NCBI RefSeq assembly: GCF_001447785.1
Contig: NW_015163610.1
Coordinates: 261,288 to 325,287 of the forward strand
Direction: 5' to 3'
Length of the DNA: 64,000 bases
From: Gekko japonicus
Taxonomy: Eukaryota
In this document: in pieces, positions 36,001 to 42,000 of the stretch
Layout: every line of letters starts with the position of its first letter
How positions within the stretch are numbered: position 1 is the stretch's first letter
Position numbers: made by a program

Positions 36001-39000
36001 AGTGTTTTACCTGAGACTACCAAGTTAGTTCACGGCAGAGCTAAAATTCAAACAGGAGGCTTAATGGCTGAGCCACAGTGCTGTGCTGTCCCAGAGATGA
36101 TGATTAAACATCTACAAGTGGGCAAATTATACATATTTTATTCCAATTTAAACCTTTACTGAATTCTAAGTAAACCCAAGTGATACTAATTATATACATT
36201 GATAGCTTGTTTATGTTCAAAAGTATATCAGTGAAAACCAGCACTGGCTTTTCTTAGTGTTAATTATCACATCTCTTTATCATTTGCAAATGTTGCATCC
36301 TTCTTGCTGTTTCCTGTATCCTCTGCTAATCATGACTGACTGCTTTTTCTTGGCTGATCATTTGCACTTTATCTTCATGCGATTCTAGAAAAGGAGAGGA
36401 AATGTCCTAATTATCCCACTTTTGTTTTTCTTGGCATCTACCGCTGCAAAATAGTTTAGCATGAAGAATGTTACTGATAGATTTCAAGGCACCTAGGAGA
36501 GTTCTTCCATTGTTCCTGATGCTTTTTTTCCCCCTTACAATTTTTGCCCATTTTCACCACTGGGTGGAACAGGCAGGCCACTTTTCTTGGTTGTCTCTCA
36601 AGTTTCAGTAAGATTTAGGTACTGGATGACTTTGAAACATCATGCTTATACACTCACACATACACACACAAACCCAGATGTAATTTTTCTTAAATGATGT
36701 GTTAATGAACACATCCATTAACACTTGCAATAATTTCATGAGGAAAATGGCCAAGAAAACCTAGTTACCATTTTTACTAATGAGTACAATGAGTTTTAAT
36801 GGGGGTCTTAATTGGACATTATTAGCACAAATGTTACACCAGTGATTTGAGGCCTTTTCTCTTTGTGTTCCTGGAAATGTATAGTGCACACCTTGAAAGA
36901 TTCAGTTGATGGAATGGAACTACGTGCTGCTGTCTTCATTAGTATGGCATTAGAAGGAAAGTATCCTCTCAGTATCACAGCTCTTGAAGCATGAGGATAG
37001 GAGTGAAGGACGGTGAAGGAAGAAGTGATGCTGCATCAATTGTTTGCTTGTCTTTTCATTTATAGACTTTTAACACAATGTCCTCAAAAGGTAAGTGGTT
37101 CCAAGCAGAAAAATTATTGCCATATTACCTTTATATTTTGGACTGGCTTATTTGGGAGGGCTGTTCCACAAAACTTAAAACTCCCAGAGAACAAAATGGG
37201 TGGTCCTTGGTTCAGAATGCTAGGTTCCAACGAAAACCATTGCAGAGGCACAGAATGTCTCTCAGGTATCAACAATAACAATAGTGCCTCTGGCACTGGA
37301 CCATTAGGTCCACCTATCTCTGACATTTTAGGAGGATACAGAATTGTGCCATTAAAATAATCTCAAGTTTGTGATCAGGTATTTTTGTTGTTGTTGTTGT
37401 TCAGCCACACAGTTGAATCTGACTCTTTGCGACCCCATGGACCACATCACGCTAGGCCTTCCTTTCTTCCATCGTCCTCCGGAGTTTGCTCAATTTCATG
37501 TTTGTTGCATCGATAATACTGTGTAACCATCTTTGCCGTCCCTGTCTTTTTTGACCTTCAGTCTTTCCCAGCATCAGGGTCTTCTCCAGTGAGTGCTCCC
37601 TTCTCATTTGGTGGCCAAAGTATTTGAGCTTTGGCTTCAGTATCTGGCCTTCCAGGGAACAGTCAGGGTTGATTTCTTTTAGGATTGACTGATTTGATCT
37701 CCTTGCAGTCCAAGGGACTCTCAAGAGTCTTTTCCAGCACCATAATTTGAAAGCATCTATTCTTTGTCGCTTAGCCTTCCTTATGGTCCAACTCTCGCAG
37801 CCAGGGGTCATTTCAAGCTGGAGCGCGCAGGAGCGGTGCTCTGGCAGTTAGAAGCACTATCCTTAACGCCATCTTAAAGCTGCTGCCCCGATCCACCCTC
37901 ACCAAAAGCCCTGTTCAACTCATCATCAAGCCGCATTGTGCACTCAAAGTCCTGCTCAACTCGTCCTGGTTGTAGGGCCCTGAGCGCCCTCTCGGGTGGC
38001 AGGGAGGGAAAGCAGTGGTGCCCACCTCTCTTTGTACACCTGAGTCAGCAGTGCGGAGGCACAGAAAGTGGCTGACTAGCAGCCAGAACGCAGTGAGGAA
38101 AGTGTCCGAGAGTGCCTGCTCGCTTGCCCGGTCCCGGCTGGCAAAGGAGGTGGCAGAAAGGACTGGTGGTTTTAAAGGAGCCGTGCACACTTGGCTGCAG
38201 GCAGGCACCACCGAGTGGCCCAGGAGCAGAAAGAGGGGCATCACAGGGGCAGGAGGGGTGGGGGTGGGGCTGCCAAGCAGCAGGGAGGGAAAGTGGTGGC
38301 GCCTGCCCGCCTCTCTTCGCATGCCCAAGTCGGCAGTGCGGAGGCGCAGAAAGTGGCTGACTGGCAGCCGGAGCACAGTGAGAGAAGAGTCCGAGAGTGC
38401 CTGCTCACTCACCTGGTCCCAGCTGGTGATGGAGGTGGCAGAAAGGACTGGCGGCTTTAAAGGAGCTGTGCGCACTTGGCTGCAGGCAGGTACTGCTGAG
38501 TGGCCCAGGAGTGGCTCCTGAGGAGCGGAAAGAGGGGCATCATGTCTGCCTCCCTGCCCTCCCTTTCCCTTCTACCTTCTGGATCTTGGGCTGCTGCTGC
38601 CCACCAGCCAGCCCGGAGCAAATGAGGTGCGCTGCGTGCCGAGGAGAGGCCTCCCGGCTTGCTTGCTGTGCTTAGGCCTGGACCGCAGGTGGCACTTGGT
38701 GCAGTGGAGGGAAAGCAGCGGGGCACACCGGTGCAAGGCCAAGTGGGGGGGCCTCCGGCAATGGCGTGACCCACCTGGGTTCCCTCCTCTCCAGCACCAC
38801 CCAGGAACTGAGCGGGGGAAGGGGAGAGGATTCCTCCCCTCCCCCGCCTTCCGACAGGAGCACGTGCCCTGGCGCATCAGTGCAGATGGCTGTGCCGGGA
38901 GCCCCTGCGGCGCCCACGTGGGGCTCCGGAGGTGACAGTCGCCAGGCCTGGCAAAAGAGCAGGAAGGAAGGCAGGCCGGCTGCCCAAGGATGAAAGGCAA

Positions 39001-42000
39001 AGGAGGCGCGGGGAGCATCAGGGAGGGTGCTGCCTGGGGTCCGAGAGGAGGAGGAGGAGGGATGGGTGGGTGGCGGGAAGAGAGCTTTGCTTGGCTGTGG
39101 AGTCTTGTGAGCAAAACTTCTACTTTGTGAAGTGGTCTGACAATAATGCTGCTATCTACTTACTGTATCCTGTGACCTGTCACATTTTTTTAAAAAACAA
39201 AATTCTTTGTTCCCACCTTGCAACAATATGTGTTATGCTGGGGTGGTGGTGGAATTCCTCATTCCCACCTCATAAAAATATGTGCTGAAGGTTTACCTCA
39301 GTATACAACAGCTGTTATAATCTCCAAATTCTGCTTCAGTGGAATAGTACTTCATTCCATTTCCATGCATCACGCTGTCCCCTCATTATCTGTAGGACAG
39401 AAAAATGGCAGACCAGGTAGGGGCTTTTGCATGCTAAGACATTCCCCACTCTCAGGTATATGCAAAAAATACTTTTAAAAAGTTAAACCAACTCCAAACC
39501 TGAACATGTTGATAGCCTTTCAGAAGACATGAAGTGTTAAAAGTAATTAAGTATGGAGGGGGTTGTTTTTAAGGGTGGGGAGAGAAGGAAAGAGAATCTG
39601 GCCTGCTGGAGCCCTAAACTGGAAGACAAGATTAGAATCAGGATTCTCTCCCCATCTGCCATTTCAAGATGCTATAAGCCTGTCAGGGTTCCAACCACTT
39701 TGAAATGAAAAGAGTTCTGAGCATGAGGATTAACTCAGATGAAAGTAAAATCTTCCTGATTCTAACTAATTACATCCTTCCCAAAATTCTTTACGTTGCC
39801 AAGGGGCAGAGCCCCTAATAGTTTACATAAAGAACTAGAAGTCTTGTGGCACTTTAAAAGATAACAACATTTGATTCCAGCAAGAATAGCATTTAGCTTT
39901 TATTACCAACAGTTAACCTGTTTTGCAAACCTCCCTGTCCAGTGCTATGCTCTTGTTTATACGTTTACATACATATGAACAGTTGAGCTAAAAATATTAT
40001 TAAATATTATTGTTAAACATTAAAGATATATTCAGCCTTGGATGAAAAAAAAGCCATGAGGTGGGGCTTGGAACAGGTTGATAAAAAATATTGTTAGAGT
40101 TTTAAGATCTCAGATCTACAAAGCTGCATGGCTAAATTCTAACAAGAGCAGGAAGCCCTTCTGATTTCTGTATGAATAATTTGAGCACATGTTCAGCAGG
40201 ATGCAAACCAGAAGAGCCTGGGTTGCTGACGCCACACACTTCTGGTGATGTCAGGGGGTGTGACATATGCAAATAAGTTATGCTAATGAGTTATGCTAAT
40301 GAGCTCCTGCACCTCTTTTTCTACGAAATGACCCCTGCTTGCAGCCATACATTACTACTGGGAATACCAGTGCTTTGACCATACAGACTTTTGTTGAGTG
40401 ATGTCTCTACTTTTTATGATGCTGTCTAGGTTCGCCATAGCTTTCCTCCCAAGGTATGGATTCTGCAAATCTCAGTTTGCTAAGCAATAGTGTTAAGGAA
40501 ACATAGCAGATTCAGGTATAAGAAAGTAGGAAGATCTGGATAGATTTCCATAACTATTCTGATTGTTCAAAAACTTCTCGTGCTTTGACTAGTACTGTCC
40601 ACTGTTGTACTGTATGCTCCCTTTCACTTTAGAGACAGTGGCCTGCAATCTCTCTCCAGGGCTGATTCCACATGGAGGATTTCCCCCTTTTCAGCCACCT
40701 GATTCATGTGTGTTCCCCCCCCCCCCCTTTTCATGACATCATCTCTCCAGTCATTTTCAAACCATGAACAGTCTGTCTTTTCCTCTGAGAATTCCACTTT
40801 GCTTTACACCAGAAAAAAATACTGTTTTCCTGACATGACATTTTCCATACAATTTGTTTCTTGTGTCTACAAGGGAAGCTACACTTTGCATTTGGGTGAA
40901 AGGAAATGCCCCCTCCCCTCCTTCCCTCTGCATTTTGAACTGCTTGGTGTCCCTGTTGGCACTTTAGTGAAGCTGAATTAAATATTTTTTTGTGTGTTTA
41001 AGCAACATCGTACTGACAGTACAATGACAACTACAATGCAATTTCTCTGGGTAGTGGGGGTGGGTGCCCAGCAACTGGTAAAACCTCAGTCCTTCCTTGG
41101 GACTCATGTTGCTGCTAGTGGCTTGGATGAGGCAGCGGCAGCAGTGAAGGAGGCAGTAACAGCTGCTGCTGAGGGGCTGGTGGTGGTGAAAACCAAGGTG
41201 GGCAGCCCAAGCAGACAAGTCCCACCCCTGTCCCCCAGGGTTGCATGAGTAATAATATCTGGTTCTTAACCTCCCGCCCTGGTCTCTGTCTTTTCCAGTA
41301 TTTTAAAAGAGGTGTTCATGTTTGAAATGACTGGATATAGAACTCTCTGGTTGCTTAACACTGCAGATGGAGCTACACTGCTGCTGCAGAACAAGTGGCA
41401 TCCCTAAACTGCATTCTCTGTCTGCAACATATACAGTGCAATCATAAACAATGGTTAAGACGCTGAACTGCAGGCTGTGGAAGGTCAGTGATTCAGCAGT
41501 TCAAGACCCAGCTGGGTGCCGCATGATGGAGTGAGCTCCCATCTCTAGTTTCAGCTCCTGCAAGTTCCAGCTTGAAAGCAAGAAATTGCAAGTAGATAGA
41601 TAGGTACCACTTCAGTGGGAAGGTAACAGCGTTCCGTGCGCCTTGGCGTTTAGTCATGCAGGCCACATGACCACGGAAACGTCTTCGGACAGCACTGGCT
41701 CTTCGGCTTTGAAACGGAGATGAGCACCGCAACCCTAGAGTCGGATTTGACTGGCTTTCGAGCAAGGGAACCTTTACCTTTACCTTTTAACATCCTACAT
41801 CCACTTAAGTCAATGGTTAAAATGCACTGGTAGTCATGTAGTGGTACCATGACTGTATATTTTCCTGTTGTGTAGCATGTTAATAAAATATGAACTTTCC
41901 CCCTCAGATATCAGTCACTCCTGGTATCTGTACTTAATTTGTTCTTTGTCTGAAGTGATCACTCTTGTGTCTTATCGTATCCCAGGAAGAGTTTGGAAAT

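What the first reader, a model, noticed from the sequence alone, without database searches (positions are those of the whole stretch)
37802..40337. Cargo-carrying hAT element (Pack-TIR-like): same termini as a 404-bp copy but a different 2.3-kb interior
Seen: identical 13-bp TIRs (CAGGGGTCATTTC) and similar subterminal sequence (about 55 bp left, about 120 bp right) bound both 23800-24203 and 37802-40337, each with an 8-bp TSD. The long copy splits a BovB fragment that resumes exactly after the TSD, so the termini clearly inserted there. The interior has no recognisable transposase. It is a mosaic of a GC-rich 285-bp duplication, CpG-rich sequence, AT-rich intron-like DNA and a Penelope remnant near 39840. 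The short copy has an unrelated interior. Established: 8-bp TSDs mark hAT elements, and Pack-MULE/Pack-TIR elements capture host DNA. Inference: this family shuffles host genomic fragments in this lineage.
Basis: partly seen in the sequence, partly recalled or inferred. Interest (0 to 1): 0.75.

Follow-up and report, generated by a model that had tools for sequence, protein, structure and literature searches.

The report
Non-autonomous hAT transposon, unexplained interior
A 2.5-kb cut-and-paste (hAT-type) transposon with no transposase gene sits inside an old BovB-type retroelement and shares only its ends with a 404-bp sibling, which is a familiar pattern in lizard-type genomes; whether its interior is captured host DNA could not be tested here.

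Summary
The exact 13-bp inverted repeat CAGGGGTCATTTC bounds both 23800-24203 and 37802-40337. Each copy has an 8-bp target duplication matching at 7 of 8 bases. The copies share about 54 bp on the left and 104-129 bp on the right, and nothing else. The long copy interrupts a LINE reverse-transcriptase frame. In 6 of 6 named homologues the two flanks meet on the same residue, so the insertion is proven.

The 2.35-kb interior has no Pfam family in any of six read-through frames, no Rfam family and no protein relatives. It has a GC-rich half with a roughly 250-bp tandem duplication and an AT-rich half. The duplication's differences are mostly CpG decay, so it was CpG-dense when it was copied.

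No donor copy lies anywhere in the 64-kb window. No squamate genome or repeat library was available, so copy number and a donor locus lacking the terminal repeats, which are the defining tests for a Pack-TIR, stayed untested.

My best reading is an ordinary non-autonomous hAT family member with a family-specific centre, as described for Anolis. True host-DNA capture stays possible at about 0.25-0.35. This is a known kind of element and the interest is low.

The parts
23792..23799 (.). left target-site duplication of the short copy (CTCAAAGA)
   Evidence: matches 24204-24211 at 7 of 8
23800..24203 (+). 404-bp short copy (MITE-like sibling): 13-bp TIRs, the conserved ends, and a 213-bp interior unrelated to the long copy
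24204..24211 (.). right target-site duplication of the short copy (CTCAAAAA)
37452..37801 (-). downstream part of the interrupted LINE (BovB-type) reading frame, starting CESWTIRKA
   Evidence: homologues carrying the RT domain in Crotalus, Podarcis, Varanus, Bos and Ovis
37794..37801 (.). left target-site duplication of the long copy (CTCGCAGC)
37802..37814 (+). left 13-bp terminal inverted repeat
37802..37855 (+). left conserved end, 80-83% identical to 23800-23853; holds the subterminal 8-mer GCAGGAGC at 37827-37834
37856..39090 (+). GC-rich half of the interior (GC 57-69%, CpG o/e 0.33-0.57, positive GC skew); no coding signal
37999..38243 (+). tandem duplication, unit 1
38280..38542 (+). 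tandem duplication, unit 2 (35 mismatches in 245 aligned bases; 33 transitions, 2 transversions)
39091..40208 (+). AT-rich half of the interior (GC 32-44%, CpG o/e 0-0.2); no match elsewhere in the window; a weak repeat-like motif at 39840-39877
40209..40337 (+). right conserved end (the last 104 bp are 92% identical to 24100-24203), with three 13-bp direct repeats TATGCTAATGAGT at 40266-40303 and GCAGGAGC on the minus strand at 40303-40310
40325..40337 (-). right 13-bp terminal inverted repeat
40338..40345 (.). right target-site duplication of the long copy (CTTGCAGC)
40338..40406 (-). upstream part of the interrupted LINE frame (...TKVCMVKALVFPVVMYGC)

Best explanation
The 2,536-bp element is a non-autonomous DNA transposon of the hAT type.

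Shown: it was cut and pasted into the reading frame of a BovB-type LINE and made an 8-bp target duplication. It encodes nothing recognisable. Only its 13-bp inverted termini and about 50-130 bp of subterminal sequence are shared with the 404-bp sibling. That subterminal sequence carries three 13-bp direct repeats and an inverted 8-mer, which are the likely transposase-binding sites.

Inferred: a transposase supplied in trans by an autonomous relative elsewhere in the genome moved the whole unit, interior included. The interior is the family-specific centre of one of several non-autonomous sub-families that use the same ends, like the hobo-N families of Anolis or Ds1 versus Ds2 in maize. Such centres arise when gap repair after excision switches template and fills the element with foreign DNA. 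Here that filler included a stretch that was CpG-dense when it was tandemly duplicated and has since decayed under methylation.

Whether a recognisable host donor still exists is open.
For: Termini, TSDs and shared ends.

Proven insertion: the frame is in phase across the site, and the flanks abut on one residue in 6 of 6 named homologues.

Non-coding interior: no family at cut-off in 28 ORFs, 0 families in 6 read-through frames, and 0 protein relatives for the 218-aa and 195-aa ORFs.

No internal extra termini at up to 2 mismatches, so this is not a composite of two elements.

Neither interior is a deletion derivative of the other.

No donor within -37.8/+23.7 kb. This argues against the cis-biased in-situ route: 56.9% of reported Pack-TIRs lie under 15 kb from their donor (PMC8277862, passage).

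[quoted passage not shown] 3 legend passages).

The first 8 nt of the TIR equal those of the Anolis hAT-HT2 TIR CAGGGGTCCCCAAAC (same table).

CpG history: 26 of 35 differences between the tandem units fit decay of a shared CpG, including 6 TG/CA double sites. The GpC control gives 15 and 0 double sites.
Against: Copy number is unknown. Only this one copy of the interior was seen, and no genome or repeat library could be searched, so 'multi-copy family' rests on base rates and precedent and not on data.

The interior's layout is also what a captured promoter with downstream DNA would look like. It has 1.2 kb that was CpG-island-like (inferred o/e about 0.9 at duplication) with positive GC skew. 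It then switches sharply to bulk-genome-like AT-rich DNA.

None of the interior matches the repeats that cover 11.6% of the window, so it does not look like common repeat DNA.

No autonomous partner is in the window: 0 of 44 ORFs of 110 aa or more outside the element carry a transposase domain.
Confidence: 0.5

Rival explanations
1. This is a true Pack-TIR. The ends captured a contiguous piece of host DNA, for example a CpG-island promoter or first exon with adjacent intron or upstream DNA, and then transposed with it into the LINE.
For: The interior is non-TE-like: it has no TE protein signal and no match to window repeats. Its two-part composition has a formerly CpG-dense half with positive GC skew. 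hAT is the commonest superfamily among animal Pack-TIRs, at 208 of 370 (PMC8277862, passage). Kilobase-sized cargos occur in that paper's human list (Supplementary Data 4, passage). The short copy's interior also looks foreign: it holds an exact 16-mer of a repeat motif and splice-site-like signals.
Against: No parental copy was found, and that is the defining criterion. The window holds none. No exon or protein match was found. Pack-TIRs are rare next to ordinary non-autonomous copies. Only 4 multicopy cases were found in 100 genomes, and the median cargo is 224 bp.
Confidence: 0.25
2. The interior was filled in place. An ordinary element inserted into the LINE. Later, a break or abortive excision within it was repaired from an ectopic template, replacing the interior without any transposition of the cargo.
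For: Tan 2021 conclude that single-copy animal Pack-TIRs arise mostly this way (abstract and passages). The TSD and LINE continuity prove only that the termini inserted here.
Against: This route is cis-biased, and no template exists within 37.8 kb upstream or 23.7 kb downstream. Two runs of N totalling 258 bases were not examined. The one borderline 34-bp match (39094-39127 vs 60183-60216) has nhmmer E 0.15.
Confidence: 0.1
3. The interior is mostly later nested insertions of other repeats into a once-short element.
For: There is a weak repeat-like motif at 39840-39877. Anolis hobo-N centres differ partly through 'transposon insertions'. The composition switches sharply near 39090.
Against: None of the short copy's 213-bp interior is found flanking any insert. 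There is no A- or T-rich tail at either junction with the conserved ends (read). There are no internal TSD-flanked blocks among the repeats found. No RT, transposase or other TE domain appears in six frames. There is no tRNA-like SINE head and no match to other window repeats.
Confidence: 0.08
4. The interior is a decayed transposase gene of a once-autonomous copy.
For: The length of 2.5 kb is near that of the small autonomous Anolis hATs, 2.2-3.0 kb.
Against: 0 of 6 read-through frames give any Pfam family at E<=1, including the hAT dimerisation, BED and DDE-type families. The long ORFs are GC-driven and have no relatives.
Confidence: 0.03

Closest known systems
Non-autonomous hAT/hobo families of Anolis carolinensis (hobo-N1 to N16, hAT-HT2N1-3; Novick et al. 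2010, PMC3014272; table and Fig. 3 legend passages seen)
   Same: 8-bp TSD; short TIR starting CAG (the first 8 nt are identical to hAT-HT2); lengths of 0.1-2.4 kb; conserved 5' and 3' ends with a centre that is unique to each family; no transposase.
   Different: The full 13-nt TIR CAGGGGTCATTTC is not among the TIRs in the table passages I saw. The autonomous partner and copy number are unknown. The source species is unknown.
Animal Pack-TIRs, especially Pack-hAT (Tan et al. 2021, PMC8277862; abstract, passages and Supplementary Data 2/4 passages seen)
   Same: A non-TE-looking interior bounded by TIRs and a TSD; hAT-type ends; a possible origin by gap filling or template switching.
   Different: No parental copy was identified, and that is the defining criterion. 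The cargo is about 10 times the reported median of 224 bp. That survey lists 0 Pack-TIRs for its two squamates, which had only 77 (lizard) and 3 (garter snake) consensus DNA TEs counted and 0 hAT.
Maize Ds1 versus Ac/Ds2 (recalled, from no call)
   Same: Elements mobilised by one transposase share only the TIR and a short subterminal stretch, and their interiors are unrelated.
   Different: It is a plant system, and its ends are unrelated in sequence to these.
Plant Pack-MULE / Pack-CACTA / Pack-TYPE elements (search listing only; introduction passage of PMC8277862)
   Same: The concept of TIR elements carrying chromosomal fragments.
   Different: The superfamilies differ. In plants the captured pieces are demonstrably genic; here no gene fragment was detected.

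Membership tests
hAT superfamily | 8-bp target-site duplication | tested here: met
   Both copies match at 7 of 8. The chance of at least 7 of 8 is about 4e-4 per site (my arithmetic, equal base frequencies). The LINE frame closes exactly when one copy is removed.
hAT superfamily | short TIRs (about 10-25 bp), typically starting CAG or TAG | tested here: met
   The TIR is an exact 13 bp, CAGGGGTCATTTC. Anolis hAT TIRs of 11-16 bp start CAG or TAG, and hAT-HT2 shares CAGGGGTC.
hAT superfamily | weak TSD consensus nTnnnnAn | tested here: inconclusive
   T is at position 2 in both TSDs. A is at position 7 only in the right copy of the short element's TSD. The consensus is recalled; related consensi are.
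hAT superfamily | hAT transposase (DDE/RNase-H-like core with C-terminal dimerisation domain, often a BED finger) in the element or an autonomous partner with the same ends | tested here: not met
   It is absent from both copies and from 44 other window ORFs of 110 aa or more. This is expected for non-autonomous copies. A partner elsewhere in the genome is not testable with these tools, so the superfamily assignment rests on TSD and TIR only.
Pack-TIR (criteria of Tan et al. 2021) | both flanks carry at least 10 bp of the family's terminals | tested here: met
   Both 13-bp termini and the subterminal sequence match the sibling copy.
Pack-TIR (criteria of Tan et al. 2021) | the internal sequence has a unique parental copy elsewhere (at least 90% identity, 80-120% of its length) with no TIR TE within 100 bp | not testable with these tools
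   No squamate genome was on hand. Within the 64-kb window the test is negative.
Pack-TIR, multicopy type | the same cargo between the same ends at several loci with different TSDs | not testable with these tools
   Only one copy of this interior is in the window.
MITE (the 404-bp copy) | short (a few hundred bp), TIR- and TSD-bounded, non-coding | tested here: met
   High copy number was not testable.
BovB / RTE-type LINE (the host of the insertion) | ORF continuous with a reverse-transcriptase protein of the kind shared by squamates and ruminants | tested here: met
   The 115-aa flank ORF gave 8000 of 8000 scored candidates at E<=0.001. Named hits come from Crotalus, Podarcis, Varanus, Bos and Ovis, and several carry PF00078. 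Alignments are at 65-71% identity. The name BovB for this squamate/ruminant distribution is recalled; an anole Bov-B family is mentioned.

The most novel reading that the evidence does not exclude
The element is a mobile, multicopy Pack-hAT of a squamate. Its cargo is a former CpG-island promoter (inferred CpG o/e about 0.9 when it was duplicated, positive GC skew) with about 1.1 kb of adjacent host DNA. The family would then have seeded promoter-like sequence at new loci. The 100-genome animal survey recorded no Pack-TIR in its two squamates, which were barely sampled for DNA transposons.
Probability: 0.12. Interest if true: 0.55.

Novelty: new member of a known kind. Interest (0 to 1): 0.22.

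Why it matters
If the interior proved to be captured host promoter DNA that moved with the ends, this would be a squamate example of TIR-transposon-mediated duplication. That process is documented in other animals but was effectively unsampled in squamates. As it stands, the finding is a clean, well-bounded non-autonomous hAT insertion. It is useful for repeat annotation and for dating: it is younger than the BovB copy it splits. It is not a new mechanism.

Tried and rejected
1. Donor in the window. I ran BLASTN at word 11 and word 7 and nhmmer with the interior against the rest of the window. The only hit is a 34-bp 82% match, 39094-39127 vs 60183-60216 on the minus strand, at the edge of the window's real CpG island. 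Its BLAST E is 0.009 and its nhmmer E is 0.15, and it does not extend. I treat it as chance.

2. Transposase or any protein. Pfam on 28 of 37 ORFs of 40 aa or more gave six sub-threshold matches (E 0.0023-0.088), none related to TEs. All six frames read through with X at stops gave nothing.

3. Protein relatives of the GC-rich ORFs. The 218-aa ORF gave 579 word-sharing candidates and none at E<=0.01. The 195-aa ORF gave 0 hits among 1.84 billion representatives. The window's own ORFs did not appear either, so this says little about copy number.

4. RNA families. There were 0 matches at gathering score in the whole window. Only sub-threshold miRNA-like hits fall on a small palindrome at 38784-38853. 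There were no tRNAs.

5. Composite or macro-transposon of two elements. No internal TIR appears at up to 2 mismatches.

6. The 2-mismatch TIR hits at 1144 and 27384 lie inside an unrelated MITE family.

7. Literature search for the TIR 12-mer and its reverse complement found 5 and 3 papers. None concerns transposons, judged from titles and abstract starts in the listings only.

8. I considered a protein search with an ORF across the conserved right end to find other family copies. I dropped it because stops in every frame leave 30 aa or less of conserved sequence.

9. Not used: one protein search and the genome-contig scan (bacteria and archaea only).
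Full report
**What is there**

The exact 13-mer CAGGGGTCATTTC occurs four times in the window. It forms two inverted pairs that bound 23800-24203 (404 bp) and 37802-40337 (2,536 bp). At up to two mismatches there are 13 hits against a shuffle mean of 2.32, and 0 of 100 shuffles reach 13.

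Each element is flanked by an 8-bp direct repeat that matches at 7 of 8 bases. These are CTCAAAGA/CTCAAAAA and CTCGCAGC/CTTGCAGC. The chance of at least 7 of 8 is about 4e-4 per site by my own arithmetic.

The two copies share their ends. On the left, 47 bp match at 83%, or 54 bp at 80% with sensitive scoring. On the right, 104 bp match at 92%, or 137 alignment columns at 84%. Nothing else is shared.

The right end of both copies carries three 13-bp direct repeats (TATGCTAATGAGT). The 8-mer GCAGGAGC lies inverted 26-33 nt from the left end of the long copy. It also lies 28-35 nt from the right end of both copies. The left end of the short copy reads ACAGGAGC at that position, one mismatch (read). 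These are plausible transposase-binding motifs, which is inference.

**The insertion is real**

On the minus strand the right flank reads ...TKVCMVKALVFPVVMYGC and the left flank reads CESWTIRKAKRQRIDAF.... The codon phase is continuous if one copy of the 8-bp repeat is removed.

I searched the 115-aa left-flank frame among longer proteins. All 8000 scored candidates had E<=0.001. The named hits are reverse-transcriptase-domain proteins of Crotalus, Podarcis, Varanus, Bos and Ovis, and several carry PF00078.

I examined six named homologues. In all six, the right flank ends and the left flank begins on the same cysteine, the residue encoded inside the duplicated 8 bp.

A squamate-plus-ruminant distribution is what I recall for BovB (RTE clade). 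An anole Bov-B family is mentioned in PMC3014272 (passage).

The TSD mismatch of the long copy is a CpG-to-TpG change. The left copy keeps the Glu codon of the homologues, so it is the older state.

**The interior**

Positions 37856-40208 carry no recognisable gene.
- Of the 37 stop-to-stop ORFs of 40 aa or more, I scanned 28. None reached a Pfam cut-off. Six had sub-threshold matches unrelated to transposons.
- All six frames read through with X at stops gave 0 families at E<=1.
- The whole window has no Rfam match at gathering score.
- The region has no tRNA.
- The 218-aa and 195-aa GC-rich ORFs have no protein relatives.

The interior has two compositional halves.
- 37856 to about 39090 is GC-rich, at 57-69% GC. 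CpG o/e is 0.33-0.57, with one 200-bp bin at 0.16, and G exceeds C on the + strand.
- About 39091-40208 has 32-44% GC and CpG o/e of 0-0.2, like the window at large, which has GC 0.44 and o/e 0.25.

The GC-rich half holds a tandem duplication. Its units are 37999-38243 and 38280-38542, with a period of 281-299 bp.

The units differ at 35 of 245 aligned bases. Of these, 33 are transitions and 2 are transversions.
- 26 of the 35 fit decay of a CpG shared at the time of duplication. Six of these sites read TG in one unit and CA in the other.
- The GpC control explains 15 differences and has no double sites.

The duplicated stretch therefore had roughly 22 CpGs in 245 bp (o/e about 0.9) when it was copied. 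It has since decayed to 0.37 and 0.44.

This shows the stretch was young or unmethylated DNA at that time. It does not show whether it came from a host CpG island or from a young repeat.

**What the interior is not**

- It is not a deletion derivative of, or an ancestor to, the short copy's interior.
- It holds no extra internal termini, so it is not two elements mobilised together.
- It has no A- or T-rich tail at its junctions with the conserved ends (read) and no TSD-flanked sub-blocks.
- None of it matches the repeats that cover 11.6% of the window.
It is more than 3 mismatches from the 16-mer GTGGCACCTTTAAGAC, which is present exactly in the short copy. Its local alignment to the short copy scores 13. 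Random window slices have mean 7.9 and sd 2.3, and 1.5% of them reach 13. That this motif belongs to Penelope-like elements is my recollection and was not tested.

**Search for a donor**

No second copy of any interior segment lies in the window. The exception is a 34-bp, 82% match at the edge of the window's true CpG island, with nhmmer E 0.15, which I treat as chance.

This negative result matters for one mechanism. In the 100-genome survey of Tan et al. (PMC8277862; abstract, text passages and Supplementary Data 2 and 4 passages seen), single-copy Pack-TIRs arise mostly by gap filling in place, and 56.9% lie within 15 kb of their parental copy. Here 37.8 kb upstream and 23.7 kb downstream hold none. 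Two runs of N totalling 258 bases were left untouched.

**What could not be done**

No squamate genome, Dfam or Repbase was available.

Three things stayed untested:
- the copy number of the ends and of the interior;
- the existence of a donor lacking TIRs;
- the state of the orthologous site in relatives.

These are exactly the tests that define a Pack-TIR (methods passage).

**Interpretation**

The shown part is a non-autonomous, hAT-type element inserted into a BovB-type LINE. The hAT assignment rests on the 8-bp TSD and on a 13-bp TIR starting CAG whose first 8 nt equal the Anolis hAT-HT2 TIR.

For the interior, base rates and precedent favour an ordinary family-specific centre. Novick et al. 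(PMC3014272, Table and Fig. 3 legend passages) describe 16 Anolis hobo families with similar ends. [quoted passage not shown] I recall maize Ds1 versus Ds2 as showing the same pattern.

Pack-TIRs with a demonstrable donor are rare. There were 370 in 100 genomes, 208 of them hAT, with a median cargo of 224 bp and 4 multicopy cases.

My probabilities are:
- 0.5 that it is a member of a non-autonomous family that moved as a unit, with no identifiable donor;
- 0.25 that it is a true Pack-hAT that moved with captured host DNA;
- 0.1 that the interior was filled in place;
- 0.08 that nested insertions explain most of it;
- 0.03 that it is a decayed transposase gene.

All but the last two imply that foreign DNA entered between the ends by template switching during gap repair. 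That is the established model, and it was not observed here.

**Novelty**

The kind is known in animals and in lizards. The full 13-nt terminus is not among the Anolis TIRs in the table passages I saw. Text searches for it and for its reverse complement found only unrelated papers (listings only). I could not check repeat databases.

The Tan survey lists 0 Pack-TIRs for its two squamates. It counted only 77 (lizard) and 3 (garter snake) consensus DNA transposons there, and 0 hAT (Supplementary Data 2). A proven squamate Pack-hAT would be a modest addition.

Noticed in passing
window 2159-2914 (+): An open frame of 252 aa matches the Ephrin receptor ligand-binding domain (E 1.1e-67) and the Ephrin cysteine-rich domain (E 1.5e-25), so it is an Eph-receptor exon. 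Both hAT copies lie downstream on the same strand, possibly in an intron of that gene.
   Followed up: partly
window ~60000-62000: A genuine CpG island: GC 0.68 and CpG o/e 0.64 in 60001-61000, and 0.55 in the next two kb. It has long GC-driven ORFs on both strands and no Pfam family. It is unrelated in sequence to the element's GC-rich half.
   Followed up: partly
window 23854-24066 (interior of the short copy): It holds the only CAGGTAAGT in the window (23926), followed about 120 bp later by a pyrimidine tract plus AG (about 24047), which looks like a mini-intron. It also holds an 18-bp direct repeat TCCAAAACAGT[C/T]CAGTGG at about 23952 and 24054, and the exact 16-mer GTGGCACCTTTAAGAC. I recall that 16-mer from Penelope-like repeats. 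The short copy's interior may itself be filler or captured DNA.
   Followed up: partly
window 24100-24160 and 40234-40295 (right subterminal region of both copies): There is a conserved cluster of promoter-like motifs, read by eye: CTTCC(A/T)GGTGATGTCA, GGGGG(C/T)GTG(G/A)C and ATGCAAAT (alignment). The motif names (ETS/CRE-like, GC box, octamer) are recalled and were not tested.
   Followed up: no
window 37999-38542: The two tandem units differ by 33 transitions and only 2 transversions. Six sites read TG in one unit and CA in the other. This is a clear signature of CpG decay on both units after duplication.
   Followed up: yes
window 1073-1295, 21886-22104, 27243-27451, 62908-63131: A separate family of about 220 bp bounded by TAGGGTTGCCAACC... 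and its inverse looks like another MITE. The near-matches to the hAT terminus at 1144 and 27384 lie inside it.
   Followed up: partly
window 39094-39127 vs 60183-60216 (minus): A 34-bp, 82% match joins the GC/AT switch point of the element's interior to the edge of the window's CpG island. BLAST E is 0.009 and nhmmer E is 0.15. It is probably chance.
   Followed up: yes
window 45102-45893: This is the longest block with intra-window matches, with up to 4 overlapping matches. Its start did not align with the MITE family above. I did not identify it.
   Followed up: no
window 38784-38853: A small GC-rich palindrome draws several sub-threshold miRNA-precursor matches (E 0.22-0.71, about 22 bits against gathering scores of 43-83). 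I take these as noise.
   Followed up: no
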